Shown here: in pieces, positions 12,188 through 36,091 of the stretch
Numbering within the stretch: the first letter of the stretch is position 1
How the letters are laid out: each line of letters begins with the position of its first letter
NCBI GenBank assembly: GCA_942490765.1
Contig: CALNYM010000011.1
Location: 36,829 to 76,828, forward strand
Reading direction: 5' to 3'
From: an uncultured Desulfobacterales bacterium
Lineage (GTDB): Bacteria; Desulfobacterota; Desulfobacteria; Desulfobacterales; 4572-123
Length of the DNA: 40,000 bases
Made by a program: the position numbers and the translations under genes
The notes under the pieces: model-generated
Seen by the model: the letters and a program-made list of their open reading frames with translations, nothing else
Told to the model about the DNA's origin: nothing
The model's database searches: none

Positions 12188-12519
12188 TGGTTCCTCCTCT
12201 ACTTTTTAGGTTTAACGTTCAATGTGAAATCAACTTGCCGGTTTTTAAAAAAACGCAATTTTGAGTTGTTGATTACTTTTAGCAACATCAGATTTGAATT
12301 GATGGTTTTAGCTCAACTTCTATGGGGCCATAAGATTTTGAATTAATGTCAGATAGTATACAATAGGTTCGATCAAAAGTATATAAATTTTTTATTTAAT
12401 ATAAAATCAATAGCTTGTATCGAAAAGAAGAACTTTCCATTTTTTCGAAAGGCCCTGGCCCGCCGGCGCATCATGGGCGACTGTGGGGCCCTGGCCAGAA
12501 CAGCAAGGAACCAGCCTGT

Positions 12520-17400: not shown

Positions 17401-18854
17401 TTGTCCATGGGATAGATGGTTCCTGCGTTCATGATGCCGTTGGGATCAAATTGATCCTTTAACCCTTTCAAAATATAATAGGCTGATCCGTGCTCAATTT
17501 TAGTCCAGGGGGTCCGGTATTTGCCGATGCCATGGTGGTGCACCATCGAGCCCCCGACCTTCAGGGTTTCCTCCACAATCAACGCATTTAACGGAATGTG
17601 GTACTTGGTGATCTCTTCCTCCGGTTTGCAGTCTTTGACATCGTAGTCATAGACAAAGTACAGATTGGTACCGGTCTGGTAGCTGTGGGAAGAATGTCCG
17701 CCCAGCATGGTCAGATCGTCCGCATGGGGGAAATCCGACCGGATCCGTTGGATGGCGTTTTCATAGATGGTGTTGATCGTATCCCAGTTGCCCGAGACTT
17801 CCGTGGTGAACCCGATGTGATGGTTTTTGCGGATGAGTTCACGTTCTTCGGCAATTTTATCCGGTCCCCAGCACAGATGGTTGAACCAGTTCTCGACAAT
17901 TCGACTGTCAATGCGCCGGCATTCCGCGTAGTTGTCGACAATCTCTTCGATTCCCCGGGCCGTGGCCTCGGCCAGGTGTTTATTGCCCTCTGCCAGGAAC
18001 ATCAGAACGCACTGGTCGGGTGCAAACTGATCGAAACTGTGCTGGGTGCCGTCTTCCGCATCGTAAAGGCGCGCCATCGAAGGGCGATACCCATGGACCA
18101 TGACTTCCCGCAGGATCTCAAACCCTTTTTCCATGGAATCCAGCCGCCAGGCCAGGAACTGGTTGTTTTCCGGGAAATACTTGAAAATTTTAACGGTGAC
18201 TTCGGTAATAAAGCACAGTGCCCCTTCATTGCCGATGATCACGTGGCGGATATCCGGGCCGCATGAACGGCGGGGAACGTTTTTAATCCGGGTGATCTCA
18301 CCGTTGGGGAACACGGCTTCCAGTCCGACGACCATATCTTCGATGGCGCCATAGAGGGTGGAAAACTGCCCGATGCTGCGGGTGGCCACCAGGCCGCCCA
18401 TATGGGCCAACGGTTTTGACTGGGGAGAATGGCCGGTGGTATACCCCTGTTCCCGGAGCCGGTCTTCCAGATCACCTAAAACCACACCGCACTGGGTCGT
18501 TGCCAACATATTGGTGGGATCGATCTTGATGATCTGGTTCATCTGTGACCCGTCAAGCACCACGGAATTTTCAACGATGGTTTCCAGGCCCCCCTCCGTG
18601 GCGGTGCCCCCGGTGCGGGCCACGGAATTGATTTGATTCTGGTTCAGGAAGGTCAACACATCTGCGACCTGCTTCGCGTCTGCCAGCTTGACCACGGCCG
18701 CAGGGATCGGGGTGGTATAAACACCGAATATTGTTTCGTATTTTTTATACCGATCATGGCTGTTTTCCTCTAGCACCCTGGCATCGGTGATCACGCGCTG
18801 CTCACCGACAATGGTTTTGAGCTGATCGACAATCGCTTCACGGGTCAATGTCAT
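17397..18854 (-). CDS. FAD-linked oxidase resembling the alkyl-DHAP-synthase-like branch of the GlcD superfamily
   Basis: 485 aa. GHSPQSKPLAHMGGLVATRSIGQFSTLYGAIEDMVVGLEAVFPNGE resembles the AGPS-type motif GH.P.S....GG.v.TR..G....YG.IED.V. Confidence 0.8.
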   Translation of the reverse strand: MTLTREAIVDQLKTIVGEQRVITDARVLEENSHDRYKKYETIFGVYTTPIPAAVVKLADAKQVADVLTFLNQNQINSVARTGGTATEGGLETIVENSVVLDGSQMNQIIKIDPTNMLATTQCGVVLGDLEDRLREQGYTTGHSPQSKPLAHMGGLVATRSIGQFSTLYGAIEDMVVGLEAVFPNGEITRIKNVPRRSCGPDIRHVIIGNEGALCFITEVTVKIFKYFPENNQFLAWRLDSMEKGFEILREVMVHGYRPSMARLYDAEDGTQHSFDQFAPDQCVLMFLAEGNKHLAEATARGIEEIVDNYAECRRIDSRIVENWFNHLCWGPDKIAEERELIRKNHHIGFTTEVSGNWDTINTIYENAIQRIRSDFPHADDLTMLGGHSSHSYQTGTNLYFVYDYDVKDCKPEEEITKYHIPLNALIVEETLKVGGSMVHHHGIGKYRTPWTKIEHGSAYYILKGLKDQFDPNGIMNAGTIYPMDK

Positions 18855-18913
18855 GATAAATCCTTTTTTACGTATGATTGGTAAATAAACCTGTTTTTAT
18901 CCGTTCATTCTTT

Positions 18914-19690
18914 TTATCGTACCATATAGCCTCCGTCAACAATGAGCACCTGGCCATTCAAATAGTCGGAGGCCCGGCTGGCCAGAAACACGACCGTTCC
19001 CATCAGGTCCTGGCGTTCACCCCAGCGATTGGCGGGGATACGATCGAGGACCCGTTGATTGGTTACCGGATTGCTCCTGGTCCGGGTTGTCATGTCGGTG
19101 GCATAATAGCCCGGTGCAATGCCGTTTACCTGGATATCGTATTGTGCCAGTTCATCGCCGTAGGACTTGGTCAGCCCTGCGAGGCCATGTTTTGTCGCCG
19201 CATAGGCCGGACCGTCCCGTCCTCCCAGGTAAGAATAGAGGCTGCAGATATTGATTATCTTACCGCTTTTCTGGGGGATCATTATCTTGGCCGCTTCATG
19301 ACTCAGCTCGAATGCGGCTGTCAGGTTGACGGCCACCATGGGATCCCAGTCAGCTCGGCCAAATTCCAATACAGGCTTCAACCGGCTGATACCGGCATTG
19401 TTGACCAGAATGTCCAGGCTGCCGAGTTTTTCCAGGCAGGTTTCAATGATCTGCTTCGGTGCGCCGTTCCCCGTGATGTCAATTTCCATCAATTCAACGG
19501 CCACACCCTGTTTTTCAATTAATTGCCGGGTTTCGCCATTATCCGTGACATAACTGGGAATGAAAAGATTGGCGCCGGCTTTTGCCAGGGCAGCTGAAAA
19601 CGCCAGCCCCAATCCTCTGTTGCCGCCTGTCACAATGGCTGTTTTCCCTTTCAGGGAAAAAAAATCCAATGAAAAATCATCTATTTCCAA
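18914..19690 (-). CDS. Short-chain dehydrogenase/reductase (KduD / gluconate-5-dehydrogenase-like)
   Basis: 258 aa with TGGNRGLG cofactor motif and YAATKHG catalytic YxxxK. It has a TTG start with GAGGAG 9 nt upstream. Confidence 0.85.
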   Translation of the reverse strand: MEIDDFSLDFFSLKGKTAIVTGGNRGLGLAFSAALAKAGANLFIPSYVTDNGETRQLIEKQGVAVELMEIDITGNGAPKQIIETCLEKLGSLDILVNNAGISRLKPVLEFGRADWDPMVAVNLTAAFELSHEAAKIMIPQKSGKIINICSLYSYLGGRDGPAYAATKHGLAGLTKSYGDELAQYDIQVNGIAPGYYATDMTTRTRSNPVTNQRVLDRIPANRWGERQDLMGTVVFLASRASDYLNGQVLIVDGGYMVR

Positions 19691-19767
19691 TGGCTTGAAC
19701 TCCTCTTAAAAGGTTTTTAAGGGTAACCGACACGATCATCAGCCCCATCATTATGTCCTGCATGGTG

Positions 19768-19929
19768 TCATACCACGCCCGGATAATCGATCTCTTTAGC
19801 GACGCCTGCATCACTGATCAGGACGACGTTCCTGGATTCCGTTAATGCAGAAATTTCATCTCCCATCTGTTCGACGCGATCAATCCCGAAGGAGATGTTG
19901 CCAACCCCTGGAAAAGTAAATGGAAGCAT
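19768..19929 (-). pseudogene. Remnant of an iron-containing alcohol dehydrogenase (N-terminal 53 codons only)
   Basis: Below the ORF-track size cutoff. Hand translation gives MLPFTFPGVGNISFGIDRVEQMGDEISALTESRNVVLISDAGVAKEIDYPGVV*, which matches the Fe-ADH N-terminal pattern (F.P..I.FG.g....g.e......v.lv.D.gv.k). Full-length family members are much longer, so this is truncated. Confidence 0.45.
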
Positions 19930-20185: not shown

Positions 20186-20210
20186 GATGGCGATTTTTTA
20201 CGACGCCATC
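20186..20210 (-). terminator. Hairpin overlapping the mttB stop codon (weak terminator candidate)
   Basis: Minus strand reads GATGGCG-TCGTAAAAAAT-CGCCATC (7-bp stem) followed by TACTGCGTTTTAGGGATTTT. The T-tract is not immediately adjacent to the stem. Confidence 0.3.
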
Positions 20211-21681
20211 ATTCTTTGATGCCCAGTTCTTTTTCGGCGCCGTCAACAATGTCACGCACTTGTTTGAGGACAGCGTCTGAAAGTTTCGGCGGTTCATATG
20301 TCTCAAGGATGTGACGAACCGCTTCGCCGGCCCGCTCGTATGCGTCTTTTGAACCGTTTTCTTCCCAGCGGAATCTCATCTGCCGGTTCAGCAGCTTCGG
20401 ACTTGTGGTCAGCCGCATGTGCTTGAAGGTGGATTCGTGGGCGAGATAATCCTTGAAAGGGCCGACCTCCTTGATCGTATCGATGGACAGGGTTTCTTCA
20501 TTGACCTCAATGCCGTTTACCGTCCGTTTGATCATACCGGCCACTTCGTTATCCAATACCAGTTGTGCCAGATCGAAAGTGATGCCCATTTCCAGCATTC
20601 CCAAGCCGTAAATTACGTTGCACCCTGACAACGCAGGCAAGATACCGGTGATGGTCTTTTCATGGCCGGACTGGTAGTCAACCACTTTGCTGTCGCCCTA
20701 TCCACCGGCGGCGAAACTGGGCAACCCATAGTAGCGGGCAAGCCGGGCCACCGCCGCATTGATCATGGCCGTCTCAGGGGCACCCACCGTTGCCGTGGCA
20801 TACTTCAGGTCCAGAGGGCAGGTGGAACTGGCATAAATGAACGGCGTCCCTTTTTGAACCAGTTGGCCCAGAACAAGACTTGCCAGATTTTCGCTGTTTT
20901 GCTGTACCAATGTGCCGGCAATGTGGATGGGGGAAGAGCCGCCGGTCATGGCCATGCCGATACAGTTTAACCCAATGCCGTTTCGGGCCGCTTCGATAAT
21001 GATGTCACAATGGTGGGACGACAGCTTCAAGGGGCTGATGGGACAGGTCACAAAGGTCAGAAACGGTCTTTCCCTGAATTTATCCATACCCCCGGCGATG
21101 GCAGCGCACATTTCAAGAATTTTTCCGCACTGATACCGATCCACCGGACCCAGCCAGTGATGCTTGGTCGTATTGGTGAGTGACGCCTCGGCATTATGCA
21201 GTGCCTGCACCCTGGGGTCTTTGTCATGGGAAAGCATGCAGCGTTCATAGGTTTCCACATGTTCCAGAGAATCGATGAGCCGGGCGGCCATCTCGATATC
21301 GGCCTTGGTGGTTTTGCGATGTTCTCCCGTATAAGGATCGACAAACATGATGCCTTCACCAAAATTGGTGAACGTCACCCGGTTGGCTTCCAGAACCACA
21401 TCGCTCTCCGGTATGCGGCCGTAGGCATGAAACGTAGCCGGCGCCGTCCGGATCGACGCTTCCACCAGGTAGGGTGGCAGGGTAACGACTTTTGTTTTTT
21501 CATTCACACTGGCGCCGGCAGCACCGAAGATCTGCCTTGCCTCTTCGCTTTCCACAAAAACACCGGTGCATTTCAGGATTTCAAGGGAACCCAGGTGTAT
21601 TTCATGCACTTCGTCGTCGGTGAGTGTGTTTAGACTGAAGCCGCCGCTGGACAATTTCCCGGATTTGGTTGGTCGCTTCAT
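20209..21681 (-). CDS. mttB: Trimethylamine:corrinoid methyltransferase MttB with an in-frame UAG (pyrrolysine) codon, 490 codons
   Basis: Track ORFs 20698..21681 and 20209..20685 are in the same frame, and only TAG (20700..20698) interrupts it: ...[50 protein letters not shown]... AGGAGG lies 5 nt upstream of ATG 21681. The product has MttB family layout throughout. Confidence 0.85.
20698..20700 (-). other. UAG recoding site (predicted pyrrolysine, codon 328 of mttB copy 1)
   Basis: The plus strand reads CTA, which is TAG on the minus strand, in the context GGT GGA TAG GGC GAC AGC AAA. Confidence 0.8.
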
Positions 21682-24780: not shown

Positions 24781-25121
24781 AATGTTATATCCCCTTTATT
24801 TTTAAGGTTTTTGTTAAATTTTTAGTTGATCTGTACGGAAGAATGTAAAAAACATGTTTGAATTTTTTTTGTCGAAGATATTGTCTGCATCATTAGGCGT
24901 TGTTAACTACGATGTCAAGTAAAAAATAACCTCAAGCTTACTTTTTCAGTTCATTGTTTTTATTTTTTCTACGTTTTTAGCTTTTTTTGTTTGTATTTTT
25001 ATGATAGATAATTTCAATCTGTTCCATAACAGGCATTTTAAACCAACCTGTGCATCGGCTTGAACCATCTCCGCGGTGGGGAAACAGGTCTCTGTTCAAA
25101 CACTAAAAAATGAGGATTTTT

Positions 25122-25634
25122 ATGGAAAACCGAAAATCAAAAAAAAATATCAAACCACCGGATCTGGTTGATTGCGAAATTATTAATTTATTGCAAAAGG
25201 ACGGCAGAATTTCAAATACCGATATTGCAAAAGAAATCGGCATTTCGGAGGGAACCGTTCGTACCCGCTTGAACCGGTTGATTAAAAACGAGGTCATTCA
25301 GATTGTCGCCGTCAGCAACCCCATCAAACTCGGCTTTAATATCGTCGGGCAAATCAGAATTCAGATAGATGTTGGCAAGATGGAGAATATTGTAACAAAA
25401 TTGAAAAAATTAAAAGCCCTGTGGTTTATCGTTCAGACCACCGGGGGAACCACCGGTCTTGAAGCTGAATTTAACGTCAAGTCTCTGGATGAACTCAATA
25501 CATTGATTTTTGAATACATCAACAAGATAGACGGTGTCATCAAAACCGAGGTCTCCCTGATAATGGATTTTATCAAGCGACGATATGATTGGGGCACCGC
25601 CATGGATGAAAAACAGGGATCCACGGACAAATAA
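25122..25634 (+). CDS. AsnC/Lrp-family transcriptional regulator
   Basis: Track ORF 25110..25634. GAGGA lies 5 nt upstream of ATG 25122. HTH motif: ISNTDIAKEIGISEGTVRTRLNRL. It has a C-terminal RAM-like domain and is divergent from the mmsA operon. Confidence 0.85.
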   Translation: MENRKSKKNIKPPDLVDCEIINLLQKDGRISNTDIAKEIGISEGTVRTRLNRLIKNEVIQIVAVSNPIKLGFNIVGQIRIQIDVGKMENIVTKLKKLKALWFIVQTTGGTTGLEAEFNVKSLDELNTLIFEYINKIDGVIKTEVSLIMDFIKRRYDWGTAMDEKQGSTDK

Positions 25635-25809: not shown

Positions 25810-26123
25810 TCGCCGAGCCTTCAGATATTGATTCACATTGAATAACTTTTGTTAATTTACGGTGGTGGCCACTGATGGTACACAATATCATTTCAGCTCA
25901 TAACCCGTAAACGCCGTGTTCCGGGCTTATACCCAAGCCGTCCCTGTCGGGTCGGATTTCTACCGTCTTAATACGGTGCCTAACTTACCTGAACAAAGGT
26001 CTGCAAAGTATGCCTTTCTTTTGCATAACAGATCGATTCCGTCTAATCGGTTACATGTAATCCCTTCTCACGGATTTTCATGTTATGCGAAAAACAAAAA
26101 ACGCTCTTAAAAAGGAGGAAAGC

Positions 26124-27515
26124 ATGGGAAAAATTAAAACCCGAATGGGCGATGGCTTCAAGGTCGAAATGACCGAAAGCGAAGTCCGAAAAGCCCTGGA
26201 AGAAGGGACTCAGGATGCGGCAGAACGCGCCCGGGTCGAACCGCTGACCCCGGACGATTTACAACAGATTTTTGAAATTTTTGCCTGTCCTTATCGAATC
26301 GTTGGTGTTGAGGAAGGCAATGAAGTCGTTCTTACCTACGACAGCCTTAACACCAAAATCAAGCGGGCCCAGATTTCAGCCAGCAAGATCCAGTCCCTGC
26401 AGATTTGTGAAAGGGCCCTGGGGGCAGACACCCTGGAGCTTGCCCATATCGACTATAGCTATAAACCCGTAAAACCGATCATTCCCTTTGAAAAACCGAT
26501 TATGGAGCAGGCTGTCCTGATCACAATCCCGGCATTGCTCTATGGCGCCATGCCCAACCTGGGGCTCTACAGCCAGCCGGACGGTCCATGCCCCAATCCT
26601 GCGGATCTTCTTCCCCATGGGAAAATTGCCGAAGCCAGGGCATCCTATGAAGAGGCTGCCGAATATGCCATAGCCGACATGGTTTATGTGGGCAGTGAGA
26701 TGTACGAAGCCGGCGCAGACGGCATCAATTTTGATACCACGGCAGCAGCCGGGGATGCGGAATTTTATGCAACCCTCAAGGCGGTGGAGATTCTCAGAAA
26801 AAAATATCCCGCCATGGGCATCCAGATGGGTATGGCCGCGGAATTTGTATTGGGAATGCACGGAGAGATTGAATATAACGGGGTCCGTCTGGCCGGGCTC
26901 TACCCCCACCAGCAGGTCAAACTCGCCGAGGAGGCGGGTGTAAACATTTTTGGACCGGCCGTCAATATCGTCACCAACGAATCGTTGCCCTGGAATATTG
27001 CCCGCTCGGTTACCTGGACCAAAGCCTGTACGGATGTTGCCAAGATTCCGGTGCACGCATGTCTGGGTATGGGGGTCGGCGGTGTCCCCCTGGCCCTTAC
27101 GCCACCCATCGATGCCCTTTCACGGGCATCAAAGGCCCATGTCGAGATTTGCAGGCTGGACGGGTTGTAGGTGGGTGTCGGAGACCCGTGCGGGATGCAC
27201 GCTGCACATGCAATAGTATCGGGAATGGGTGGAATACGCACTGCCGGAGATCTGGTAGCGCGTATGCAACTCAATGGCTCGATGAAAATTGATGCAGCAA
27301 AAAAACATGTCGCAGATAAGTTGAACATTTCTGTAGCGGATATTGCGGATCCGGTGGTGATGAACGAACTCCGGGAAGATCTGGATATCGGCCGCGTCAA
27401 TGAGGCCCCCGGTGTGGCCAAGGGTATTGATGCGAAGTTTCGGATCGCCAGGCTTCTGGACATTAACATCAACTCGGTGAACATATTCAAGGAGAAAATA
27501 GAACGCGACATATGA
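26124..27515 (+). CDS. mtbB: Dimethylamine:corrinoid methyltransferase MtbB with an in-frame UAG (pyrrolysine) codon, 463 codons
   Basis: Track ORFs 26085..27170 and 27171..27515 abut in the same frame and are separated only by TAG: ...[47 protein letters not shown]... AAGGAGG lies 6 nt upstream of ATG 26124. MtbB-family blocks are present (DYSYKPVKP, LYGAMPNLGLYSQPDGP, GADGINFDTT, GMHGEIEYNGVRLAGLYPHQQ). Confidence 0.9.
27168..27170 (+). other. UAG recoding site (predicted pyrrolysine, codon 349 of mtbB)
   Basis: Context is GAC GGG TTG TAG GTG GGT GTC GGA GAC. The downstream frame stays open for 115 codons with no RBS of its own. Confidence 0.85.
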
Positions 27516-27564: not shown

Positions 27565-27594
27565 CCGCGGCTTCTCGAAGACCGGAAGCCGCGG
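27565..27594 (+). other. Stable GC-rich intercistronic hairpin between mtbB and the corrinoid protein gene
   Basis: The perfect 10-bp stem CCGCGGCTTC / GAAGCCGCGG has a 10-nt loop. It is followed by A6 rather than a T-tract, so it is not a canonical terminator. Confidence 0.4.
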
Positions 27595-27659: not shown

Positions 27660-28313
27660 ATGACGACAATTGAAGTACGCTTTGAAGAAGCCAAAAAAGC
27701 CATCGTAGCGTGTGACGCTGAAAATGCATCGCTGGTGGCGACACAGGGTTTAGCAGATGGAATTGACCCTGTTGAATTTTTGAACAAGGGTTTCATTCCC
27801 GGAATAAATGAGGTCGGAGAGCTTTTCGGTAAAGGCCGGTTGTTTCTTCCCGAATTGATTATCGCTGCAGAAGCCATGCGTCAGGTAACCGATATTATTA
27901 ATGGTGCACTTGAAGCCGCCGGAACGATTTCAAAAAAGGCAGGGAAAATTCTCATGGCCACTGTTCAGGGTGATGTCCATGATATCGGTAAAACCATTGT
28001 GGTGTCACTTTTCAAAGCCAACGGATTTGAGGTGCTGGATTTGGGTCGAGATATTTCCAATGAAAAAATTATTGAAGAAGCTGTGCGGTTTGAAGCCGAT
28101 ATTATCGGTACCAGCGCGCTTCTCACCACAACAATGCCAGCCCAGCAAAAACTTGAAAAAGAACTGAAGAAAGCCGGCCTGAAGGGAAAAATCAAGACGA
28201 TTGTCGGTGGGGCGCCCGTAACACAGAGATGGGCCCAGCGCATCGGCGCAGATGCTTACGCCCAGGATGCGTCAGATGGCGTTCAGAAAGCAAAGCTGAT
28301 GTTAGGCATCTGA
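27660..28313 (+). CDS. mtbC: Methyltransferase-cognate corrinoid protein (B12-binding; MtbC-like by position)
   Basis: 217 aa. It has an N-terminal helical cap domain plus a Rossmann B12-binding domain with the DxHxxG motif (GDVHDIGK). AAGGAG lies 7 nt upstream. Confidence 0.8.
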   Translation: MTTIEVRFEEAKKAIVACDAENASLVATQGLADGIDPVEFLNKGFIPGINEVGELFGKGRLFLPELIIAAEAMRQVTDIINGALEAAGTISKKAGKILMATVQGDVHDIGKTIVVSLFKANGFEVLDLGRDISNEKIIEEAVRFEADIIGTSALLTTTMPAQQKLEKELKKAGLKGKIKTIVGGAPVTQRWAQRIGADAYAQDASDGVQKAKLMLGI

Positions 28314-28463
28314 ACGCAATGGCAATAACCGATTTTAACCGGGGAACCGTACCTGCCGAAAGGCACACGAACGGTTCGGGGAGGAGAATCAGGAGCAAGC
28401 GGTATTTTATTATTTCATTTGTCATTTTTAACCCCCTATTGAACAAAAGTAAGGAGGATGCAA

Positions 28464-29729
28464 ATGCTCAACTTAAAGAAATTAATGGTTTTCTCGCTAG
28501 TCGTTTTTTCTGTAATCTCATTTACGGCCATGAATTCGCTGGCGGCTGACAAGGTGTTTACCCTTGGGGTTCTCGGACCGTTTACCGGACCGGCTGCTGA
28601 GACGGGACAAGACATGAAAAACGCCGCCCAGATGGCGTTTGATGAAATTGGCAACAAGATTGGCGATTACACTGTAAAGTTGGTTTACATCGATGACCAG
28701 TCATCCCCTGATAAAGGCGCCAATGCCTATGCCGAGGCCATTGAAAGAAAGGGCGTCCAGGCCGGAATTCTCAACTGGAATACCTCGGTGACCGTAGCTT
28801 GTCAGCCGGTGTGGGGTAAGTACAAGGTTCCCCATTTTTTCTGCATGGGGGCAGGCTCAGCCGGAAATGAGAAGTGGGCATCTTTAGCCCCGGAAGACCG
28901 TTACCTGATCATGAAGGGGTGGCCGATCCCTCAAAAATTAGTGGTTGCTTATTCGGATTGTTTCCGGAATTACATTGCCAATGATACTTGGAAACCTGAA
29001 AAAAAACTGGTGGCCTTCTGGGGTGAGGATACCGATTGGGGAAGAAGTCTGATCGGTGGTTTGGCCAAATATTTGAAAGCTGACGGCTGGGAAGTGTTTA
29101 CCGAAGAGTATTTTGCCCTGACACAGACCAATTTTTATCCGTTTATCAGCAAGTGCAAAAAGGCAGGCGTCACCGCCATGTGTGGTTCCAGCACCGGTGC
29201 CGGCTCTATTTCTGCCATGATCAAGCAATCGGACGAACTGGGATTTAAGGCCATGCAGGTTGCCGACGGTTTAGGCTGGATCGGTGATTGGTATAAGTTG
29301 ACCGGACGGGCATCCGATGGCGTAATGGACCTGGTACCCCAAATCGTTACGCCGACGCAAAAGGCCTGGGCGGAAAGCTACAAAAAGAAATTTAACAAGA
29401 ACCCCAGTCCGGCCTCTGCCGGCATGAGTTATGACTATGCTAAATTTATGGCCAAAATTGCAAAACGGGCCCTGGAAAAATACGGTGCCATCAACAGCGA
29501 AACCATAACCAAAGTCGGCCGGGAAGAGGTAGCCACCGGTAAAATGAGTTACGGACGTGAAGATGGCGCACTGTTCCATGCCAGATACGGCACCGACGCT
29601 GAAAATGCTCCGGATCCCAAAATCGGTACGGAAGATTTTTATTTCCCGCTGGTTCAGTATGAAAAAGGTGTTGGTTATTGTATATTCCCGGAAAGCATGA
29701 AAACACGTGAGATGAAGGTAAAAAAATAA
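28464..29729 (+). CDS. ABC transporter substrate-binding protein, type-1 periplasmic binding fold (LivK/amide-urea family)
   Basis: Track ORF 28458..29729. AAGGAGG lies 6 nt before ATG 28464. The signal peptide is MLNLKKLMVFSLVVFSVISFTAMNSLAADK. Confidence 0.8.
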   Translation: MLNLKKLMVFSLVVFSVISFTAMNSLAADKVFTLGVLGPFTGPAAETGQDMKNAAQMAFDEIGNKIGDYTVKLVYIDDQSSPDKGANAYAEAIERKGVQAGILNWNTSVTVACQPVWGKYKVPHFFCMGAGSAGNEKWASLAPEDRYLIMKGWPIPQKLVVAYSDCFRNYIANDTWKPEKKLVAFWGEDTDWGRSLIGGLAKYLKADGWEVFTEEYFALTQTNFYPFISKCKKAGVTAMCGSSTGAGSISAMIKQSDELGFKAMQVADGLGWIGDWYKLTGRASDGVMDLVPQIVTPTQKAWAESYKKKFNKNPSPASAGMSYDYAKFMAKIAKRALEKYGAINSETITKVGREEVATGKMSYGREDGALFHARYGTDAENAPDPKIGTEDFYFPLVQYEKGVGYCIFPESMKTREMKVKK

Positions 29730-29739
29730 TGGTGTAATA

Positions 29740-29766
29740 AATGAGGCCACCTTGTGTGGCCTCATT
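29740..29766 (+). terminator. Intrinsic terminator candidate after the binding-protein gene
   Basis: The 11-bp perfect stem AATGAGGCCAC / GTGGCCTCATT has the 5-nt loop CTTGT and begins 11 nt after the stop. It is followed by GTTGCGCTTTTCC. Confidence 0.6.
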
Positions 29767-30158
29767 GTTGCGCTTTTCCATTGGAATTTATCAAAAAACA
29801 GTGGATCTGGGGAATTGCTTTCCAACGTTTCTTGTGAATGTGGGGCATGTCGTAACACGTTTCTTCAAAGGTGCCGGGATCGCCACCATAGTCGTTCAGA
29901 CCCTTTTTAAAGCGCTTGAACGCCAAGTCTCTTTGCCATCTGTTGCAAACAGAACCTCTCGGTCCGAGAAAGTTCGCGGACAGATTTACCCGTCTGTCGC
30001 CTCGTCGACGGCAGTTTTTATCCATCTTTTTCATAATAAGAAAAAATACTTTTTTTATCCCAAGGAAAGCGACTGATTGCTCGTCATTAGCGTTTCGCTC
30101 TACAAACAACGAGGATTCCTCATACCCAGTCTTAGTAACTACTGACCCATGGTGAATT

Positions 30159-30890
30159 ATGAATATTTTAGAAACAAAGGATTTGACCAAACAATTCGGC
30201 GGCTTAATTGCCAACAATAAAATATCCATGCATTGCAAACAAGGGGAAATCCTGGGGCTGATCGGCCCCAACGGTGCCGGCAAGACCACTTTTCTCAATG
30301 CCATCGCTGGCTTGAGCGGCCCTACGTCCGGAAAGGTCTATTTTAAGGGTGAGGAATGTACCGGTTACCCTTCCCAAAAAATGTGCCGCAGAGGATTGTC
30401 GCGAACGTTCCAGATTCCCCAGCCGTTCCCGAGAATGACGGCTGTACAAAATGTTATGGTGGCAGCGGTTTTCGGCCGCAGGAAGCAATTCAGTGAAAAA
30501 GAATATTTGGACGTCTGCCGGGAAAAACTTGATTTTGTCGAATTTCCGGTGCAGGAAGACATCATATCCGGAACGTTGAATACCGTTCAGTTAAAACGTC
30601 TCGATCTGGCCCGGGCACTTGCTTCCAATCCTAAGCTGATACTTCTGGATGAGATCGCTTCCGGGCTTACAGAAGGAGAGCTGGGTGACCTGATGAAAAT
30701 CATCAGTAAAATAAGGGATATTGGGGTTACCATTATCATGGTCGAGCATATCATGCAGGTCATCATGGGGTTATGCGAACGCCTGGTGGTCATTCAGTTC
30801 GGCAATAAAATCGCCGAAGGGCCAACAAAAGCGGTTGCCCAGGACCCTAAGGTCGCTGAAGCTTATCTGGGTGCTTCGGAAGAACAGTAA
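30159..30890 (+). CDS. ABC transporter ATP-binding protein (LivG type)
   Basis: 243 aa with Walker A GPNGAGKTT and Walker B LILLDE. A LivG-style C-terminal extension is present. Confidence 0.85.
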   Translation: MNILETKDLTKQFGGLIANNKISMHCKQGEILGLIGPNGAGKTTFLNAIAGLSGPTSGKVYFKGEECTGYPSQKMCRRGLSRTFQIPQPFPRMTAVQNVMVAAVFGRRKQFSEKEYLDVCREKLDFVEFPVQEDIISGTLNTVQLKRLDLARALASNPKLILLDEIASGLTEGELGDLMKIISKIRDIGVTIIMVEHIMQVIMGLCERLVVIQFGNKIAEGPTKAVAQDPKVAEAYLGASEEQ

Positions 30891-30938
30891 AGCAGTATAC
30901 TTGGAAAATGGTAAATCAAGCCATAAAGGGAGGCGCAA

Positions 30939-31646
30939 TTGCTGCTCGAAGTAAACAATATCAACGCCGGGTACGATTTTTTACAGATTTTACGGAACCT
31001 TTCCTTAAACGTTGACAAAGGTGAATATGTTTGCCTGGTGGGACCAAACGGTGCCGGGAAAAGTACGATACTGAAATCCATTGCCGGTTTATTAAAACCC
31101 ATGTCCGGCGTTATCACATTTAACGAAGAACAAATTGACGGGTTGCCCGGGCATGTGATTCATAAAAAAGGAATCAGTTATATCTCTGAAGACCTGGATC
31201 TTTTTACCGCGATGTCGGTAAAGGAAAATCTGGCAATGGGCGCCTATACAATCAATGATAAAAAAAATATTAGCGAACTGTTTGGTTTTGTTTATGCCCT
31301 TTTCCCCAGGTTAAAGGAAAGAGAAAAACAACTGGCCGGAACCATGAGCGGCGGCGAGCGTAAAATGCTGGCCATCGGCCGGGGCATGATGTCCAATCCG
31401 AAGTTGATGCTGTTTGATGAACCATCAATGGGATTATCTCCGGAAATGACCAACGCTGTTTTTAAGGCCTTGGGTGTTTTAAACTCAAAAGGGGTGACCA
31501 TTTTGCTGGTGGAGCAGAATGTGACCAAAAGTTTCAAAGTAAGTACGCGGGGATACGTTCTGGAGCATGGTGAAATCGTACTGCAGGGGCCTTGCTCGGA
31601 TTTGGCCCGGAATGAACACGTACGAAAAGTATTTCTCGGGATTTAG
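30939..31646 (+). CDS. ABC transporter ATP-binding protein (LivF type)
   Basis: 235 aa with Walker A GPNGAGKST and signature MSGGERKM. It has a TTG start with GGGAGG 5 nt upstream. It ends in TAG, with an in-frame TAA 5 codons later. Confidence 0.85.
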   Translation: MLLEVNNINAGYDFLQILRNLSLNVDKGEYVCLVGPNGAGKSTILKSIAGLLKPMSGVITFNEEQIDGLPGHVIHKKGISYISEDLDLFTAMSVKENLAMGAYTINDKKNISELFGFVYALFPRLKEREKQLAGTMSGGERKMLAIGRGMMSNPKLMLFDEPSMGLSPEMTNAVFKALGVLNSKGVTILLVEQNVTKSFKVSTRGYVLEHGEIVLQGPCSDLARNEHVRKVFLGI

Positions 31647-31682
31647 CAAACAATTAATGAATAACGGCAGGGGAAAGTATCT

Positions 31683-32720
31683 ATGGCAAACCCAAAAACC
31701 GAATTGATAGTGAACCGTCTGGGCCGCTGGCTAAAGTCGGCCGGCGGAATAACCGTTACCTTGACAATCGTTGCGGCCTGTCTCGCAGCAATGGATAAGG
31801 GCAGTTATATCATTGTTCAAACCATCGTCACGGGGGGAATGTGGGCATTGGTGGCCATGGGATTGGCCCTGATTTTCGGTGTGATGAATATTACCAGTTT
31901 TGTTCATGGCGAATTTTTTATGATCGGCAGTCTGGTGGCCTATTTTGTCATCACGCCTTTTGTCGACACAATAGCCGACAATCCGGATACGCTTTGGGCT
32001 GCGGTAATGCCTTTGGCAACCATGTTCATCGCTTTGGTGGTCGGTGCCATTGCCGGGGCGATTAGCGAGCATGTGGTCTTTCGACCCATGCGTAAACGCA
32101 GTAAAAAAGATTGGTTGATGAACTCCTTTGTTCTTACTCTGGGCCTGTCTGTCATACTGATAAACAGCCATCAGGTATTTTTAGGGGCTAGTTTCAAGGG
32201 AGTTGTAAAATACTGGCATTATCCATCAATATCCATCTTTGGTGCCTATATTTCCTTTGACCGGGTAATGGTCTTCATCATTGCCATGTTTTCAATCTCT
32301 GGCTTTTGGGTACTGATGAGACTGACCAAAGTCGGCAGGGCCATCCGAGCCGTTTCCCAGAGTGAAAACGGGGCCATTATCACCGGTGTTAACATTGACG
32401 CCATTCAGACCCTTACCCTGGCTTTGAGCTGCGGTATGGCTGCTCTGGCCGGTGCCGCACTTCTTTTTATGTATCCGGCATATCCGACAGTTGGGTTGGG
32501 ACCGCTTTACAATTCGTGGTTCATTGTTATCGTCGCCGGCCTGGGAAACGTGGCCGGTGCGGCTTTCGGAGGATTTCTCGTAGCATTACTCCAGGTTTTG
32601 ACTACCGTCTATATAGGTGAAGGATGGGACTATACGGTTCCGGTTGCCTTTTTGATGCTCGTTCTGGTTTTTAAGCCTTCAGGCATATTTGGAAGTGAAG
32701 TCAGAGGAAAACTTGAATAA
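31683..32720 (+). CDS. ABC transporter permease (LivH type)
   Basis: 345-aa polytopic membrane protein in the branched-chain amino-acid permease family. Confidence 0.8.
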   Translation: MANPKTELIVNRLGRWLKSAGGITVTLTIVAACLAAMDKGSYIIVQTIVTGGMWALVAMGLALIFGVMNITSFVHGEFFMIGSLVAYFVITPFVDTIADNPDTLWAAVMPLATMFIALVVGAIAGAISEHVVFRPMRKRSKKDWLMNSFVLTLGLSVILINSHQVFLGASFKGVVKYWHYPSISIFGAYISFDRVMVFIIAMFSISGFWVLMRLTKVGRAIRAVSQSENGAIITGVNIDAIQTLTLALSCGMAALAGAALLFMYPAYPTVGLGPLYNSWFIVIVAGLGNVAGAAFGGFLVALLQVLTTVYIGEGWDYTVPVAFLMLVLVFKPSGIFGSEVRGKLE

Positions 32721-32745
32721 TCAGCAAGAATAAACAGGAGCAGCC

Positions 32746-33780
32746 GTGAAAAGTATTCAAGCAAATAATAAAAATGATGGTATTGATCGTTTATCAAAAT
32801 ATACCGGCATGACCCCGATGGGTCTCCTGGGCCTGGCGGTCATCGCCATATTGCCCTTTATTCCCCCTTTTAACCAGGAGTATCTGATACGATGGCTGGT
32901 TTTTGGCCTGTTCATGGCAGCCCAGGCTGTGGTTTTCAATTTTACCAATGGTTACATCAATATCGTTAACTTCGGTTTTGCCGCCTTTGTCGGTTTAGGT
33001 GCCTATACCTCTGGCATTCTGTCTGTAAAACTGGGTCTTTCTCCCTGGATCACAATTTTTCTGGGGATTATTCCGGCCGCATTCGTGGGCTTTATTACCG
33101 GGGTATTAACCCTCCGGTTGCGGGGTATTTATGCGGCCATCATGGCCTGGTTTGTCGGGTTGGCCCTGATGGGGCTGGCCACCAAAATGGTTTGGCTGAC
33201 CGAAGGCCCTCTTGGATTGAATTGTCCGGCGCTTTTTAAGACCTCATCAAACATTCCCTATTTCTACACCATATTGGTTATGTTGCTGGTATCCTATATT
33301 GTATTGAATCGAATCGTAAAATCTCATGCCGGCCTGGCATTTATCGCCATTGGTCAAAACATGGATGCGGCCATGACCTCGGGGATCAACCCTACTTTTT
33401 ACCGGGTATTTAATTTTACGGTTTCCTGCGCGTTTGCCGGTTGGCTGGGAGGATTCTATGCACATTATTACGGAATCCTGATGCCGGAATCAATGCACAC
33501 CTCTAAAACGGTGGAAGTCCTGGTAGTGGGTTATCTTGGTGGACGGGCCACTCTCTGGGGCGGTGCTGCAGCCGCTATTCCCTTTGTTTTTTGCATGGAA
33601 ATGATCAGGTCCGCAACATCAAATTATCCAGGTGTTAATTTAATTTTTTATGGATTATCTTTGGTTCTGCTGATGATGTTCTATCCCGGTGGCCTTGCCT
33701 ATCTTTACCAGAACATAGTTGAACGTGTCAAAAATCCCTGGCTGAAACGATTGTTCGGTTTAAAGGTCATAACAAAATAA
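32746..33780 (+). CDS. ABC transporter permease (LivM type)
   Basis: 344-aa polytopic membrane protein. It has a GTG start with AGGAG 5-6 nt upstream. Confidence 0.8.
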   Translation: MKSIQANNKNDGIDRLSKYTGMTPMGLLGLAVIAILPFIPPFNQEYLIRWLVFGLFMAAQAVVFNFTNGYINIVNFGFAAFVGLGAYTSGILSVKLGLSPWITIFLGIIPAAFVGFITGVLTLRLRGIYAAIMAWFVGLALMGLATKMVWLTEGPLGLNCPALFKTSSNIPYFYTILVMLLVSYIVLNRIVKSHAGLAFIAIGQNMDAAMTSGINPTFYRVFNFTVSCAFAGWLGGFYAHYYGILMPESMHTSKTVEVLVVGYLGGRATLWGGAAAAIPFVFCMEMIRSATSNYPGVNLIFYGLSLVLLMMFYPGGLAYLYQNIVERVKNPWLKRLFGLKVITK

Positions 33781-33835
33781 AAACAGAAATACGGCGCGAA
33801 AGTTTGTCCGAAGCGCTTACAGATGCCGGAAACAA

Positions 33836-33920: not shown

Positions 33921-34550
33921 TTATACCAGAGATTTGGCCAGCTTGGTGGCTGAACCGGCATCTGCGGCATATCCGTCGGCACCGATTTCATCGGCATACT
34001 TCTGATTTACCGGGGCACCGCCGATGATGACCTTGACCTTGTCGCGGTATCCGGCTTCAACCAGGGCGTCGATGGTTGTTTTCATCATACCCATGGTGGT
34101 GGTGAGCAGGGCAGAGATGGCAACGATGGTGGCGCCCTGGTCTTTTACGGCGGCCACAAAGGTTTCCGGGGCCACGTCAACACCCAGGTTGATCACCTCA
34201 AAACCGGCGCTTTCCAGCATCATGGCCACCAGGTTTTTACCGATGTCATGCAGGTCGCCCTTGGCCGTACCCATGGCAACCTTGCCGGCGGCTTTGGCAT
34301 CTTCTACGGACAGCAGGGGTTTAAGGATTTCCACTGCTGCGGCCATGGCCTTGGCGGACATGAGCACTTCGGGGATAAACATATCGCCGTTCTGCATTTT
34401 TTCGCCGACAATATCCATGCCTTTGATCAATCCGTTATTGAGAATATCTTTTGCTTCCATTCCCTCGTTTACGGCGGCCTGTACAAGCGTTTTCAATGTT
34501 GCTGCATCGCCGGCTATCAGTGTGTTCGAAAGTGCGTTTAAATCTGCCAT
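33921..34550 (-). CDS. mttC: Methyltransferase-cognate corrinoid protein (B12-binding; MttC-like by position)
   Basis: 209 aa with a cap domain plus a B12-binding domain carrying DxHxxG (GDLHDIGK). It starts 47 nt downstream of the mttB copy 2 stop. Confidence 0.8.
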   Translation of the reverse strand: MADLNALSNTLIAGDAATLKTLVQAAVNEGMEAKDILNNGLIKGMDIVGEKMQNGDMFIPEVLMSAKAMAAAVEILKPLLSVEDAKAAGKVAMGTAKGDLHDIGKNLVAMMLESAGFEVINLGVDVAPETFVAAVKDQGATIVAISALLTTTMGMMKTTIDALVEAGYRDKVKVIIGGAPVNQKYADEIGADGYAADAGSATKLAKSLV

Positions 34551-34597: not shown

Positions 34598-36091
34598 TTA
34601 TTTTTTTAAAACCGCGGCCCGTTTTTCTTTTGCTTCGGCCTCGGCATCTTCAAATATTGTGTTTAACTGGGCCTGAATGTTTTCAGGCAACGCTTCTACC
34701 TTGTGACTGGCAATGATGTGGGTTGCCCTGGCATAGGCTTTTTCCACAACATCCTTTGATCCATCTGCAATCCATCCGTCACGGCTTTTTCTGTCAAAAA
34801 GGTCGCCCTGGGACTGCCGCCGCATGTTTTTAAAGGTATGCGGATGGGTGATGAATTCACCGCCGTGGCCCACCTCTTTGATGACGTCAAAAGCAATGGC
34901 TTCATCGGTAATGGTAAATCCTTCGACGGCCTTCATGATCATTCTCAGCATTTCATTGTGTAAAACCGCCTGGGCGTAATCCCAGGTCAAACCGCTGTCA
35001 AGCATCCCGAGGCCGTAAATCAGGTTGGCACCTGCCAACGCCGTTAAAGTGGCCGTTAAAGTATATTCATGGGCTGCCTGAGCATCGGGCATTTTGCTGT
35101 CCACCTATCCACCGGCGACCCAGGAGGGCAGCCGGTAAAATTTGGCCAGTTTGGCGATGGCCGCGCTGAACATGCCCATTTCCGGGGTCCCCATGGCCGC
35201 CAGGCCGGTTTTCAGATCCATAATACTGGTGGAACTGCCGTACACCATGGGATGTCCTTTGCGAACGGCCTGTCCCAGAACGATCATGCTCAAATTTTCA
35301 GCATTATGGGTGACAAGGCTGCTGGCCAGGTTGATGCAGGTGGTGCCACCCGCCAGCCCAAGGGGGTTTATTTTCAGGGGAACCCCCAGTCGACAGGCTT
35401 CAATCAGAACGTCGCAGGCATCTTTTGAATGCAGCAACGGGCTGATGGGATCACAGGTTGTGGAGAAAATCGGTCTTTCACGGAATTTGTCATCACCGCC
35501 GGCCACAACGGAGGCCATCTTAAAACAGGTCCTCAGGTTTTCAACCGAGTTGATGCCGATATAGCCATGTTTGGTGCAGGAATTCAAAAAACTTTTGATG
35601 TTGTAAAGGCAGCAGATATCCTGGTCCATATCGCAGGGGGTTAACGGTCTTTCAAACACAATGACCTGGTCCAGTGCGTCCAGAAACAACGTGGCATCAT
35701 CAACGTCAGCTTTTGTGGGGGTTCTTAATTTTCTGGTTTTGGGGTCGATCATCATGGGGGCTTCGCCAAAATTGACAAATCCCGAACGACCGTTTTCACA
35801 AACATAATCCTTTTCAGGATCACGGGCGCAAGCCTTAAAAGTGGAAGGGCAGGACCTGATGGCATCTTCAACCAGATGGGCTGGGATTTTGACTATTTTG
35901 GTTCTATTATTGACAATACAACCAATTCCGTCAAAAATTTCAAGGGCCTGGGAGCTTTCCACTTTGACCCCCATTTCCCAGAGAATTTCCAGAGTAGCCA
36001 GATGAATTTTTTCCAATTCGTCATCGGAAAACATGTTCAGACCGATACCACTGGTCAGAACGGTTCCCGGCTGCAAATTTCTTACCGCCAT
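34598..36091 (-). CDS. mttB: Trimethylamine:corrinoid methyltransferase MttB (second, divergent copy) with an in-frame UAG (pyrrolysine) codon, 497 codons
   Basis: Track ORFs 35105..36091 and 34598..35104 abut in the same frame and are separated only by TAG: ...[50 protein letters not shown]... The TAG is in the same position and GG-TAG context as copy 1. Confidence 0.85.
35105..35107 (-). other. UAG recoding site (predicted pyrrolysine, codon 329 of mttB copy 2)
   Basis: The plus strand reads CTA, which is TAG on the minus strand, in the context GGT GGA TAG GTG GAC AGC AAA. Confidence 0.8.

What the first reader, a model, noticed from the sequence alone, without database searches (positions are those of the whole stretch)
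27168..27170. In-frame amber codon at the expected catalytic position of mtbB points to pyrrolysine recoding
Two track ORFs (26085..27170 and 27171..27515) are contiguous in one frame, and a single TAG is the only interruption. The joined 463-codon product is colinear from end to end with dimethylamine methyltransferases. In methanogens these carry UAG-encoded pyrrolysine about three quarters of the way along (near residue 356, from memory); here it is codon 349. The 115 codons after the TAG have no RBS or ATG of their own and continue family-typical sequence (VGVGDP...[12 protein letters not shown]). A cognate corrinoid protein gene follows. This argues for programmed read-through rather than two genes or a dead gene.
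Basis: partly seen in the sequence, partly recalled or inferred. Interest (0 to 1): 0.8.

Follow-up and report, generated by a model that had tools for sequence, protein, structure and literature searches.

The report
Pyrrolysine-encoding TAG in bacterial mtbB gene
The in-frame TAG sits exactly where dimethylamine methyltransferases carry the 22nd amino acid pyrrolysine, so this is one recoded gene in an uncultured sulfate-reducer-type bacterium (order Desulfobacterales), a kind of recoding already described for this group.

Summary
One TAG (27168-27170) is the only interruption of a 463-codon mtbB reading frame (ATG 26124 to TGA 27515), and it is codon 349. In NCBIfam's archaeal-type MtbB model, the part before the TAG covers profile positions 7-355 and the part after covers 357-465. 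The TAG is therefore position 356, the pyrrolysine column.

In 77 of 78 related genome loci (59-98% identity, several phyla) the same single TAG sits in the same context, LDGL*[VIA]G. No locus has a sense codon there. The post-TAG segment is under the same purifying selection as the rest of the gene (dN/dS about 0.06).

Two mttB genes in the window carry the equivalent TAG. A corrinoid protein gene follows mtbB. In 34 of the 78 related loci, pylT, pylS, pylB or pylC lie within 10 kb of mtbB.

The window itself has no pyl genes. I could not scan the same-species closed genome, so that test remains open.

Pyl-containing MtbB in Deltaproteobacteria has been published since 2007, so this is a new member of a known kind.

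One extra result: synonymous sites are unusually constrained around the TAG, and a 13-bp hairpin 66-97 nt downstream shows covariation.

The parts
26124..27515 (+). mtbB, dimethylamine:corrinoid methyltransferase; 463 codons including the UAG; stop TGA 27513-27515
   Evidence: PF09505 scores 665 bits, protein residues 4-457 against profile 3-462 of 463. TIGR02368 equivalog scores 514 bits against a cut-off of 369.1. The first 348 residues alone score 365.9, below the cut-off.
26112..26118 (+). Shine-Dalgarno sequence AAGGAGG, 5 nt before ATG 26124
   Evidence: Read directly from the sequence. Homologues start at the same methionine.
27168..27170 (+). In-frame UAG, codon 349, read as pyrrolysine
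   Evidence: It corresponds to profile position 356 of TIGR02368. UAG is position 1-3 of Rfam PYLIS_2. A TAG sits in the same column in all 74 aligned genes and in 77 of 78 loci.
27171..27512 (+). Post-UAG segment, 114 codons, translated as the C-terminal quarter of MtbB
   Evidence: It matches TIGR02368 positions 357-465. dN/dS is 0.06 against L007 and L008, the same as before the TAG. Amino-acid identity is equal before and after the TAG in 15 comparisons.
27168..27267 (+). Match to Rfam RF02509 PYLIS_2 (pyrrolysine insertion sequence, mtbB)
Evidence: 69.4 bits against a gathering score of 36.
27234..27265 (+). Conserved 13-bp hairpin: AUACGC-A-CUGCCGG, loop AGAU, CUGGUAG-C-GCGUAU; 66-97 nt after the UAG
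   Evidence: Across 74 bacterial mtbB genes 91.5% of cells are paired, against 29-45% when the partners are slid. 64 cells changed on both sides, against 16.9 +/- 6.2 in shuffles (0 of 500) and 4-26 in slid controls. It overlaps the second hairpin of PYLIS_2. The window stretch 27150-27290 folds with z = -4.07.
27660..28313 (+). Corrinoid protein of the methylamine-methyltransferase type (MtbC-like)
   Evidence: PF02607 plus PF02310. TIGR02370 pyl_corrinoid scores 224.2 against a cut-off of 215.3. The MtbC equivalog scores 202.5, below its cut-off of 350.
25110..25634 (+). AsnC/Lrp-type regulator upstream of mtbB; candidate regulator, context only
   Evidence: Pfam HTH_24, HTH_AsnC-type and AsnC_trans_reg. 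The gene sits in the same place in L001, L002, L090 and L091.
20209..21681 (-). mttB copy A with in-frame TAG at 20698-20700 (context AAGG*GDSK)
   Evidence: Translation. TIGR02369 scores 669.9 against a cut-off of 525. Rfam PYLIS_3 scores 60.5 bits at 20601-20700.
34598..36091 (-). mttB copy B with in-frame TAG at 35105-35107 (context VAGG*VDSK)
   Evidence: Translation. TIGR02369 scores 622.1 against a cut-off of 525. Rfam PYLIS_3 scores 81.6 bits at 35008-35107.
33921..34550 (-). Second corrinoid protein, downstream of mttB copy B
   Evidence: PF02607 plus PF02310. TIGR02370 scores 199, just below its cut-off of 215.3.

Best explanation
The region 26124-27515 is one gene, mtbB. It encodes a dimethylamine:corrinoid protein methyltransferase whose codon 349, UAG, is translated as pyrrolysine.

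**Proposed mechanism.**
1. A pyrrolysyl-tRNA(CUA), charged by PylS with pyrrolysine made by PylBCD, competes with release factor 1 at this UAG.
2. When the tRNA wins, the 463-residue enzyme is made, with pyrrolysine in the active site.
3. The enzyme moves a methyl group from dimethylamine to the corrinoid protein encoded at 27660-28313.
4. When release factor wins, a 348-residue fragment results. By analogy with the essential Pyl of MttB, this fragment is presumed inactive.

**Shown here:**
- The TAG is real and sits on the family's pyrrolysine position.
- It is conserved as TAG in essentially all bacterial orthologues.
- The downstream segment evolves as translated protein, including between strains of this species.
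- Two mttB genes in the window carry the equivalent TAG.
- Relatives encode pylT, pylS, pylB and pylC beside mtbB.

**Inferred, not shown:**
- This organism has the pyl genes elsewhere in its genome.
- The inserted residue is pyrrolysine.
- The substrate is dimethylamine.

A conserved codon context (UUG before the UAG) and a covarying hairpin 66-97 nt downstream may modulate the event. Their role is unknown.
For: **Position.** The TIGR02368 fragments cover profile positions 7-355 and 357-465, leaving position 356 for the TAG. The joined protein scores 514 bits against a cut-off of 369.1. PF09505 aligns end to end. Rfam PYLIS_2 starts with its UAG on the window TAG.

**Conservation.** The top 120 database homologues are almost all called at exactly 348 aa. 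77 of 78 genome loci at 59-98% identity have a single TAG in LDGL*[VIA]G, and none has a sense codon. All 74 aligned genes have it in one column.

**Selection.** dN/dS after the TAG is 0.06 against L007 and L008. Pooled over mtbB and both mttB genes, against the same-species 6.1-Mb genome, the post-TAG segments show 37 synonymous and 12 non-synonymous differences (ratio 0.095, binomial p = 6e-15).

**System context.** The only TAG-interrupted long ORF pairs in the window are in Pyl-type methyltransferase genes. A corrinoid gene follows. tRNA-Pyl(CUA) lies within 10 kb of mtbB in 21 related loci. PylSc, PylC, PylB and PylSn pass their NCBIfam equivalog cut-offs in L041 and L017. 34 of 78 loci carry at least one pyl component.

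**Codon usage.** TAG is the rarest terminal stop among 30 window genes, used by 2.

**Literature.** Pyl-MtbB together with pylTSBCD was reported in the Olavius delta1 symbiont (PMC1976440) and in marine Deltaproteobacteria (PMC8318568). Pyl is essential in MttB: the O334A and O334K mutants are inactive (PMC12626013).
Against: - No pylT (ARAGORN) and no pylS, pylB, pylC or pylSn gene was found in the 40-kb window. None was found in about 9 kb to its right, in about 11 kb of extra sequence in a sister strain, or around the sister strain's second mtbB, L029.
- A search for this species' PylB through the protein database found only PylB from other samples.
- No protein-level evidence is available.
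- TAG still ends 2 of 30 genes, so UAG is ambiguous here rather than fully reassigned.
- The corrinoid protein does not reach the MtbC equivalog cut-off (202.5 against 350).
Confidence: 0.93

Rival explanations
1. Read-through happens, but a canonical amino acid is inserted at the UAG. The source would be a near-cognate tRNA or an ordinary amber suppressor, because this organism lacks the pyl genes.
For: No pyl gene or pylT was found in the window or in the flanks I could reach. Purifying selection on the downstream segment shows translation, not which residue is inserted.
Against: If a canonical residue worked, some lineage would have replaced TAG with a sense codon. None of 78 loci has done so, although MttB-family paralogues without TAG are common in the same loci (24 of 66). 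Relatives encode pylT, pylS, pylB and pylC beside mtbB. Lys or Ala in place of Pyl inactivates MttB (PMC12626013).
Confidence: 0.03
2. The locus is a split gene. Translation stops at TAG and restarts at the adjacent GTG (27171), giving two polypeptides of 348 and 114 residues that assemble into the enzyme.
For: The codon after the TAG is GTG in the window. Gene callers routinely annotate two ORFs here.
Against: In 47 of 74 homologues the codon after the TAG is GTT, GTA, ATA, ATT or GCA, so a restart is not conserved while the TAG is. A split protein would lack the residue at profile position 356, the catalytic Pyl. The N-terminal part alone falls below the equivalog cut-off.
Confidence: 0.02
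3. The gene is a pseudogene inactivated by a nonsense mutation, or the TAG is an assembly error.
For: Standard gene calling truncates the gene at 348 aa. One relative, L055, carries a frameshift, and L085 is fragmented.
Against: The same TAG is in the same column in 77 of 78 loci across phyla and in five independent assemblies of this species. There are no extra stops or frameshifts after it. dN/dS downstream is about 0.06-0.1.
Confidence: 0.01

Closest known systems
Pyl-containing MtbB of Methanosarcina (MtbB1-3; TIGR02368 / PF09505 seed family)
   Same: The protein is colinear with the family model end to end and scores above the equivalog cut-off. Its UAG falls on the same profile position, 356. 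It is followed by a corrinoid protein gene. The 100 nt after the UAG match Rfam PYLIS_2.
   Different: The host is bacterial (Desulfobacterales). The protein has 463 residues with Pyl at 349. No pyl cluster lies nearby. The methyl acceptor downstream of the corrinoid protein is expected to be tetrahydrofolate rather than coenzyme M; this rests on general knowledge of bacterial methylamine pathways and was not tested here.
Pyl-MtbB and Pyl-MttB of Deltaproteobacteria: the Olavius algarvensis delta1 symbiont (PMC1976440) and marine Desulfobacterales genomes (PMC8318568)
   Same: The bacterial group is the same. Each genome has several mttB copies plus mtbB, all with an in-frame TAG. In the window the mttB TAGs are at codons 328 and 329, against 327 of 485 reported in PMC8318568.
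   Different: This is a different, uncultured species. Its nearest genomes are MAG CAXXLK01 and a closed 6.1-Mb contig at about 96% nucleotide identity. The pyl genes were not located for this species.
Rfam RF02509 PYLIS_2 and the mtmB PYLIS element
   Same: The window matches above the gathering score. The second model hairpin is fully formed here, and it covaries among 74 bacterial genes.
   Different: No role in Pyl insertion has been shown for the mtbB element. The hairpin starts 66 nt after the UAG, too far away to touch a ribosome decoding that codon.

Membership tests
Pyl-dependent dimethylamine:corrinoid methyltransferase MtbB (TIGR02368, PF09505) | Full-length similarity above the curated equivalog cut-off | tested here: met
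   The joined protein scores 514 bits against a cut-off of 369.1, residues 6-458 on profile 7-465 of 466. PF09505 scores 665 bits.
Pyl-dependent dimethylamine:corrinoid methyltransferase MtbB (TIGR02368, PF09505) | In-frame UAG at the pyrrolysine column | tested here: met
   The fragments before and after the TAG map to profile positions 7-355 and 357-465, so the TAG is position 356. Rfam PYLIS_2 places its UAG on 27168-27170. That Pyl is residue 356 in M. barkeri MtbB1 is recalled from memory; the paper (PMC111316) was not available.
Pyl-dependent dimethylamine:corrinoid methyltransferase MtbB (TIGR02368, PF09505) | UAG conserved in orthologues, and the sequence after it kept as coding | tested here: met
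   77 of 78 loci keep the TAG. dN/dS after the TAG is 0.06-0.17.
Pyl-dependent dimethylamine:corrinoid methyltransferase MtbB (TIGR02368, PF09505) | Adjacent cognate corrinoid protein | tested here: met
   The gene at 27660-28313 passes TIGR02370 pyl_corrinoid, 224.2 against 215.3. It does not reach the stricter MtbC equivalog cut-off.
Pyl-dependent dimethylamine:corrinoid methyltransferase MtbB (TIGR02368, PF09505) | pylT, pylS and pylBCD in the same genome | tested here: inconclusive
   They are absent from the window and the reachable flanks. They are present beside mtbB in 34 of 78 related loci.
Pyl-dependent dimethylamine:corrinoid methyltransferase MtbB (TIGR02368, PF09505) | Full-length protein containing pyrrolysine; dimethylamine methyltransferase activity | not testable with these tools
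   This needs proteomics and enzymology. No MtbB structure exists in the PDB, and the AlphaFold model was too poor to use (pLDDT 50).
Rfam RF02509 PYLIS_2 | Score at or above the gathering threshold, starting at the UAG | tested here: met
   69.4 bits against 36, model positions 1-100 on 27168-27267.
Rfam RF02509 PYLIS_2 | Both model hairpins supported in this lineage | tested here: inconclusive
   Hairpin 2 is supported by covariation. Hairpin 1 has 7 non-standard pairs in the window, and its equivalent helix is only 74% paired across 74 genes.
Rfam RF02509 PYLIS_2 | The element promotes UAG read-through | not testable with these tools
   This needs reporter assays. PMC12626013 states that no mechanism for targeted Pyl insertion is known.

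The most novel reading that the evidence does not exclude
The UAG may sit in a selected cis context that tunes pyrrolysine insertion or protects the message when termination wins.

- Of 95 conserved four- or six-fold degenerate codon columns in mtbB, the six with the least synonymous variation all lie between -1 and +28 codons of the UAG: Leu-1 UUG 71/74, Gly+26 GGA 74/74, Leu+28 CUG 73/74.
- These sites coincide with a covarying 13-bp hairpin at +66 to +97 nt.
- Bacterial Pyl-mttB genes show a parallel cluster at +20 to +24 codons, but with no detectable structure.

If this context is functional, it would be the first conserved cue for Pyl decoding in bacteria. Current literature says no such cue is known (PMC12626013).
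Probability: 0.25. Interest if true: 0.65.

Novelty: new member of a known kind. Interest (0 to 1): 0.3.

Why it matters
**Annotation.** Standard gene callers split this gene into 348-aa and roughly 105-114-aa ORFs. Nearly all of the top 120 database homologues are truncated this way. As a result, dimethylamine and trimethylamine use by Desulfobacterales is systematically under-annotated.

**Biology.** The window adds an uncultured species with at least three UAG-recoded methyltransferase genes. This fits the published picture of methylamine-using, Pyl-decoding Deltaproteobacteria in anoxic sediments.

**Beyond the known picture.** The synonymous-site constraint and the covarying hairpin downstream of the UAG give a concrete, testable candidate for a cis cue in Pyl decoding.

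Tried and rejected
1. **Pyl machinery in the same organism.**
   - The window has no tRNA. tblastn with PylSc, PylC, PylB and PylSn seeds from relatives found no hit in it or in its flanks.
   - I extended the right flank by about 9 kb. The first left-flank look-up found nothing, and the second added no new flank but identified another MttB-family gene at the window's left edge. I also read an inserted island of about 11 kb in the sister strain. None contained pyl genes.
   - A PylB protein search, five contig look-ups and three cluster listings never reached the contigs of this species (6,107,701, 2,577,672 and 281,079 bp). This route was a dead end.
   - I ran no further search on PylS. Only cluster representatives show their contig, so I put the chance of success at about one in ten.
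2. **Solved structure.** The PDB holds none for MtbB.
3. **AlphaFold model of the joined protein.** Mean pLDDT was 50, and below 50 across residues 313-387, so I discarded it and ran no fold search.
4. **Original M. barkeri paper (PMC111316).** It is not held in the library, so residue number 356 for archaeal MtbB rests on the NCBIfam profile position and on memory.
5. **Promoter and terminator scan around mtbB.** It gave nothing above the shuffled expectation.
6. **RNAalifold consensus for the mtbB region.** It was weak (-9.1 kcal/mol) with no compensatory pairs. The hairpin was recovered only by testing the window's own minimum-energy fold on the alignment. That procedure biases the paired fraction, though less so the double-change counts.
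7. **A common structure downstream of the mttB UAG.** None was found.

Full report
**Observation.** The window has a single TAG at 27168-27170 inside one continuous reading frame. The mechanical ORF begins at 26085, but the real start is most likely ATG 26124. AAGGAGG lies 5 nt upstream of it, and database homologues begin with the same MGKI.TRMGDGF and are 348 aa long up to the TAG. From that start the TAG is codon 349 of 463, and the gene ends at TGA 27513-27515. Among all places in the six frames where one stop separates two open stretches of at least 100 codons, only three use TAG. All three lie in methylamine methyltransferase genes: mtbB here, and two mttB genes on the minus strand.

**What the gene is.** The joined product matches Pfam PF09505 end to end (665 bits). 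It matches NCBIfam's equivalog model for [dimethylamine--corrinoid protein] Co-methyltransferase, TIGR02368, at 514 bits against a cut-off of 369.1. Scanned separately, the 348 residues before the TAG cover profile positions 7-355 and the 114 residues after it cover 357-465. Exactly one profile position, 356, is left for the TAG. That is the pyrrolysine column of the archaeal family. Independently, Rfam's PYLIS_2 model, whose first three positions are the UAG of mtbB, aligns without gaps on 27168-27267 (69.4 bits against a gathering score of 36). The PDB holds no solved MtbB structure. An AlphaFold model from a shallow alignment was too poor to use.

**Conservation.** In the protein database nearly all of the best 120 homologues (71-95% identity) are called at exactly 348 aa, meaning they are cut at the same codon. 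A scan of one genome per species returned 78 loci at 59-98% identity. They come mostly from Desulfobacterales MAGs, and also from two cultured strains (Desulforhopalus singaporensis DSM 12130, Desulfospira joergensenii DSM 10085) and from Spirochaetota, Dehalococcoidia, Acidobacteriota, Chromatiaceae and Eubacteriales MAGs. In 77 of the 78 the matched frame holds one internal stop, always TAG, always in the context LDGL*[VIA]G. The exception, L055, has an early frameshift. No locus has a sense codon at that column. In contrast, 24 of 66 MttB-family genes in the same loci lack the TAG.

**Is the part after the TAG translated?** Amino-acid identity is the same before and after the TAG in 15 comparisons. 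dN/dS after the TAG is 0.06 against the two closest genomes, which equals the upstream value. The window shares about 96% nucleotide identity with a closed 6.1-Mb contig of the same species. Against it, the post-TAG segments of mtbB and both mttB genes together show 37 synonymous and 12 non-synonymous differences. The per-site ratio is 0.095, and the binomial p against neutrality is 6e-15. The UAG is therefore being read through in this very lineage.

**System context.** A corrinoid protein gene follows mtbB at 27660-28313 and passes the 'methyltransferase cognate corrinoid protein' model. The two mttB genes, 20209-21681 and 34598-36091 on the minus strand, carry TAG at AGG*, pass the trimethylamine methyltransferase equivalog, and match Rfam PYLIS_3. 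Of 30 window genes, 20 end in TAA, 8 in TGA and 2 in TAG.

The window has no tRNA gene and no pyl gene. Relatives do. ARAGORN finds tRNA-Pyl(CUA) within 10 kb of mtbB in 21 loci, and almost no other tRNA there. PylSc, PylC, PylB and PylSn pass their equivalog cut-offs in L041 and L017. In all, 34 of 78 loci hold at least one pyl component.

**The open test.** I could not establish that this species has the pyl genes. Extending the window through exact-protein look-ups reached about 9 kb on the right and an island of about 11 kb in a sister strain, with no pyl genes in either. The left-flank look-up added no new flank. The PylB search never landed on this species' contigs. The closed genome that would settle it is ENA ERZ21831104 ctg97548c.

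**Rivals.**
- *Pseudogene or sequencing error.* Excluded by the conservation, the selection data, and the presence of the same TAG in independent assemblies.
- *Split gene restarting at the GTG after the TAG.* It fits the window alone. It does not fit the family, because the next codon is not a start codon in 47 of 74 homologues.
- *Insertion of a canonical amino acid.* It cannot be excluded from this window. It is made unlikely by the total absence of sense codons at this column, by the pyl genes of relatives, and by the published finding that Lys or Ala cannot replace Pyl in MttB (PMC12626013).

**RNA level.** The stretch 27150-27290 folds unusually well (z = -4.07). Across homologues the tendency is weaker: mean z is -1.35, and 22 of 74 fall below -2. 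A codon-level analysis gave a sharper result. Among 95 columns with a conserved four- or six-fold degenerate amino acid, the six with the lowest synonymous variation all lie between codons -1 and +28 relative to the UAG. These are UUG at -1 in 71/74, GGC at +20, GGA at +21, GCC at +25, GGA at +26 in 74/74 and CUG at +28 in 73/74. The median entropy elsewhere is 1.85 bits.

These sites overlap a 13-bp hairpin at 27234-27265. In 74 genes, 91.5% of its cells are paired, against 29-45% when the partners are slid. It has 64 cells changed on both sides, against 16.9 +/- 6.2 in shuffles and 4-26 in slid controls. The hairpin includes the second hairpin of Rfam PYLIS_2. The model's first hairpin is not conserved.

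The hairpin structure was taken from the window's own fold, and the sequences are related, so the support is good but not final. Bacterial Pyl-mttB genes show a similar cluster of constrained synonymous sites at +20 to +24 codons, without detectable structure. The function is unknown. The element starts 66 nt after the UAG, too far away to contact a ribosome decoding it.

**Comparison with what is known.** Pyl-containing MtbB and MttB, together with pylTSBCD, were described in a deltaproteobacterial worm symbiont in 2007 (PMC1976440). [quoted passage not shown] A canonical structure for the mtbB PYLIS region was proposed in 2013 (PMC3639795).

**Verdict.** The finding is a correct identification of a known kind of recoding in a new, uncultured species. 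I put the probability of programmed UAG-to-pyrrolysine decoding at 0.93. Interest is modest (0.3). It rises only if the conserved context proves to be a functional cue.

Noticed in passing
window 20209-21681 (-) and 34598-36091 (-): Two trimethylamine methyltransferase (mttB) genes each carry an in-frame TAG at the known Pyl position (AGG*). The TAGs are at 20698-20700 and 35105-35107. Both genes match Rfam PYLIS_3 and pass TIGR02369. The second is followed by its own corrinoid protein gene at 33921-34550 (-).
   Followed up: yes
window 27165-27254; alignment A2: Synonymous sites are almost frozen around the UAG in 74 bacterial mtbB genes: UUG at -1, GGC at +20, GGA at +21, GCC at +25, GGA at +26 and CUG at +28. 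These are the six least variable of 95 comparable codon columns in the gene.
   Followed up: partly
mttB genes in window and loci; alignment A3: Thirty-three bacterial Pyl-mttB genes show a parallel cluster of constrained synonymous sites at +20 to +24 codons after their UAG. The conserved string is YTTACCNGCGTTGGCAGG. No consensus RNA structure was detected.
   Followed up: partly
window 1-520 (-), seen through L089 4388-5107: A further MttB-family gene starts near the left edge of the window on the minus strand and runs off it. It sits after a ferredoxin gene (537-1055, -) and an aldehyde:ferredoxin oxidoreductase gene (1079-2854, -). Whether it has a TAG is unknown.
   Followed up: no
window 8446-10356 (-); L017 11792-13669; L085 19283-21119; L092 14535-16337; L090 1-1491: A fusion protein of an acetyl-CoA hydrolase/transferase with a GNAT acetyltransferase recurs near mtbB and pyl genes in several related loci. 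In L017 it lies directly beside pylSn. Its role is unknown.
   Followed up: no
window 12485-19794 and 28306-33822, compared with L091: Two blocks are absent from the same-species 6.1-Mb genome at this locus. One holds a sugar kinase, FAD-linked oxidases and electron-transfer flavoprotein genes. The other holds the Liv-type ABC transporter that follows mtbB and its corrinoid gene. In that strain the corrinoid gene after mtbB is cut to 148 aa.
   Followed up: partly
L093 2949-15570 (CAXXLK010000002.1); L001 11676-13031: Mobile elements surround these genes. In the sister strain, an island flanked by ISL3 and Y1 transposase genes carries a sigma-54 activator, a non-Pyl MttB homologue, another Pyl-mttB, another mtbB, a BCCT transporter and an aminotransferase. 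Another strain has a DDE transposase inserted after the ABC transporter.
   Followed up: no
L003 7887-9473 (= L010), L004 52-1638: In a Desulfobacterales MAG at 77% MtbB identity, the gene divergently adjacent to mtbB encodes peptide chain release factor 3 (prfC). This may be coincidence.
   Followed up: no
window 12520-13971 (-) and 30939-31646 (+): These are the only two of 30 window genes that end in TAG. If read through, the second would add 5 codons before the next stop and the first 48 codons.
   Followed up: partly
L055 10001-11380; L085 8590-9976: Two related mtbB genes are broken by frameshifts, in L055 and L085. These may be assembly (sequencing) errors or real decay.
   Followed up: partly
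L028, L037, L081, L029, L090, L092: Many related genomes carry two or more mtbB paralogues, each with the TAG. The sister strain of the window has at least three.
   Followed up: partly
window 27565-27594: A perfect 10-bp inverted repeat (CCGCGGCTTC ... GAAGCCGCGG, 10-nt loop) lies in the spacer between mtbB and the corrinoid gene. It is followed by AAAAAA rather than a T run. The terminator scan did not call it.
   Followed up: no
window 29741-30076 (+): A 111-aa ORF sits between the substrate-binding gene and the first ATPase gene of the ABC transporter. It has no Pfam or NCBIfam match but is called in related contigs.
   Followed up: no
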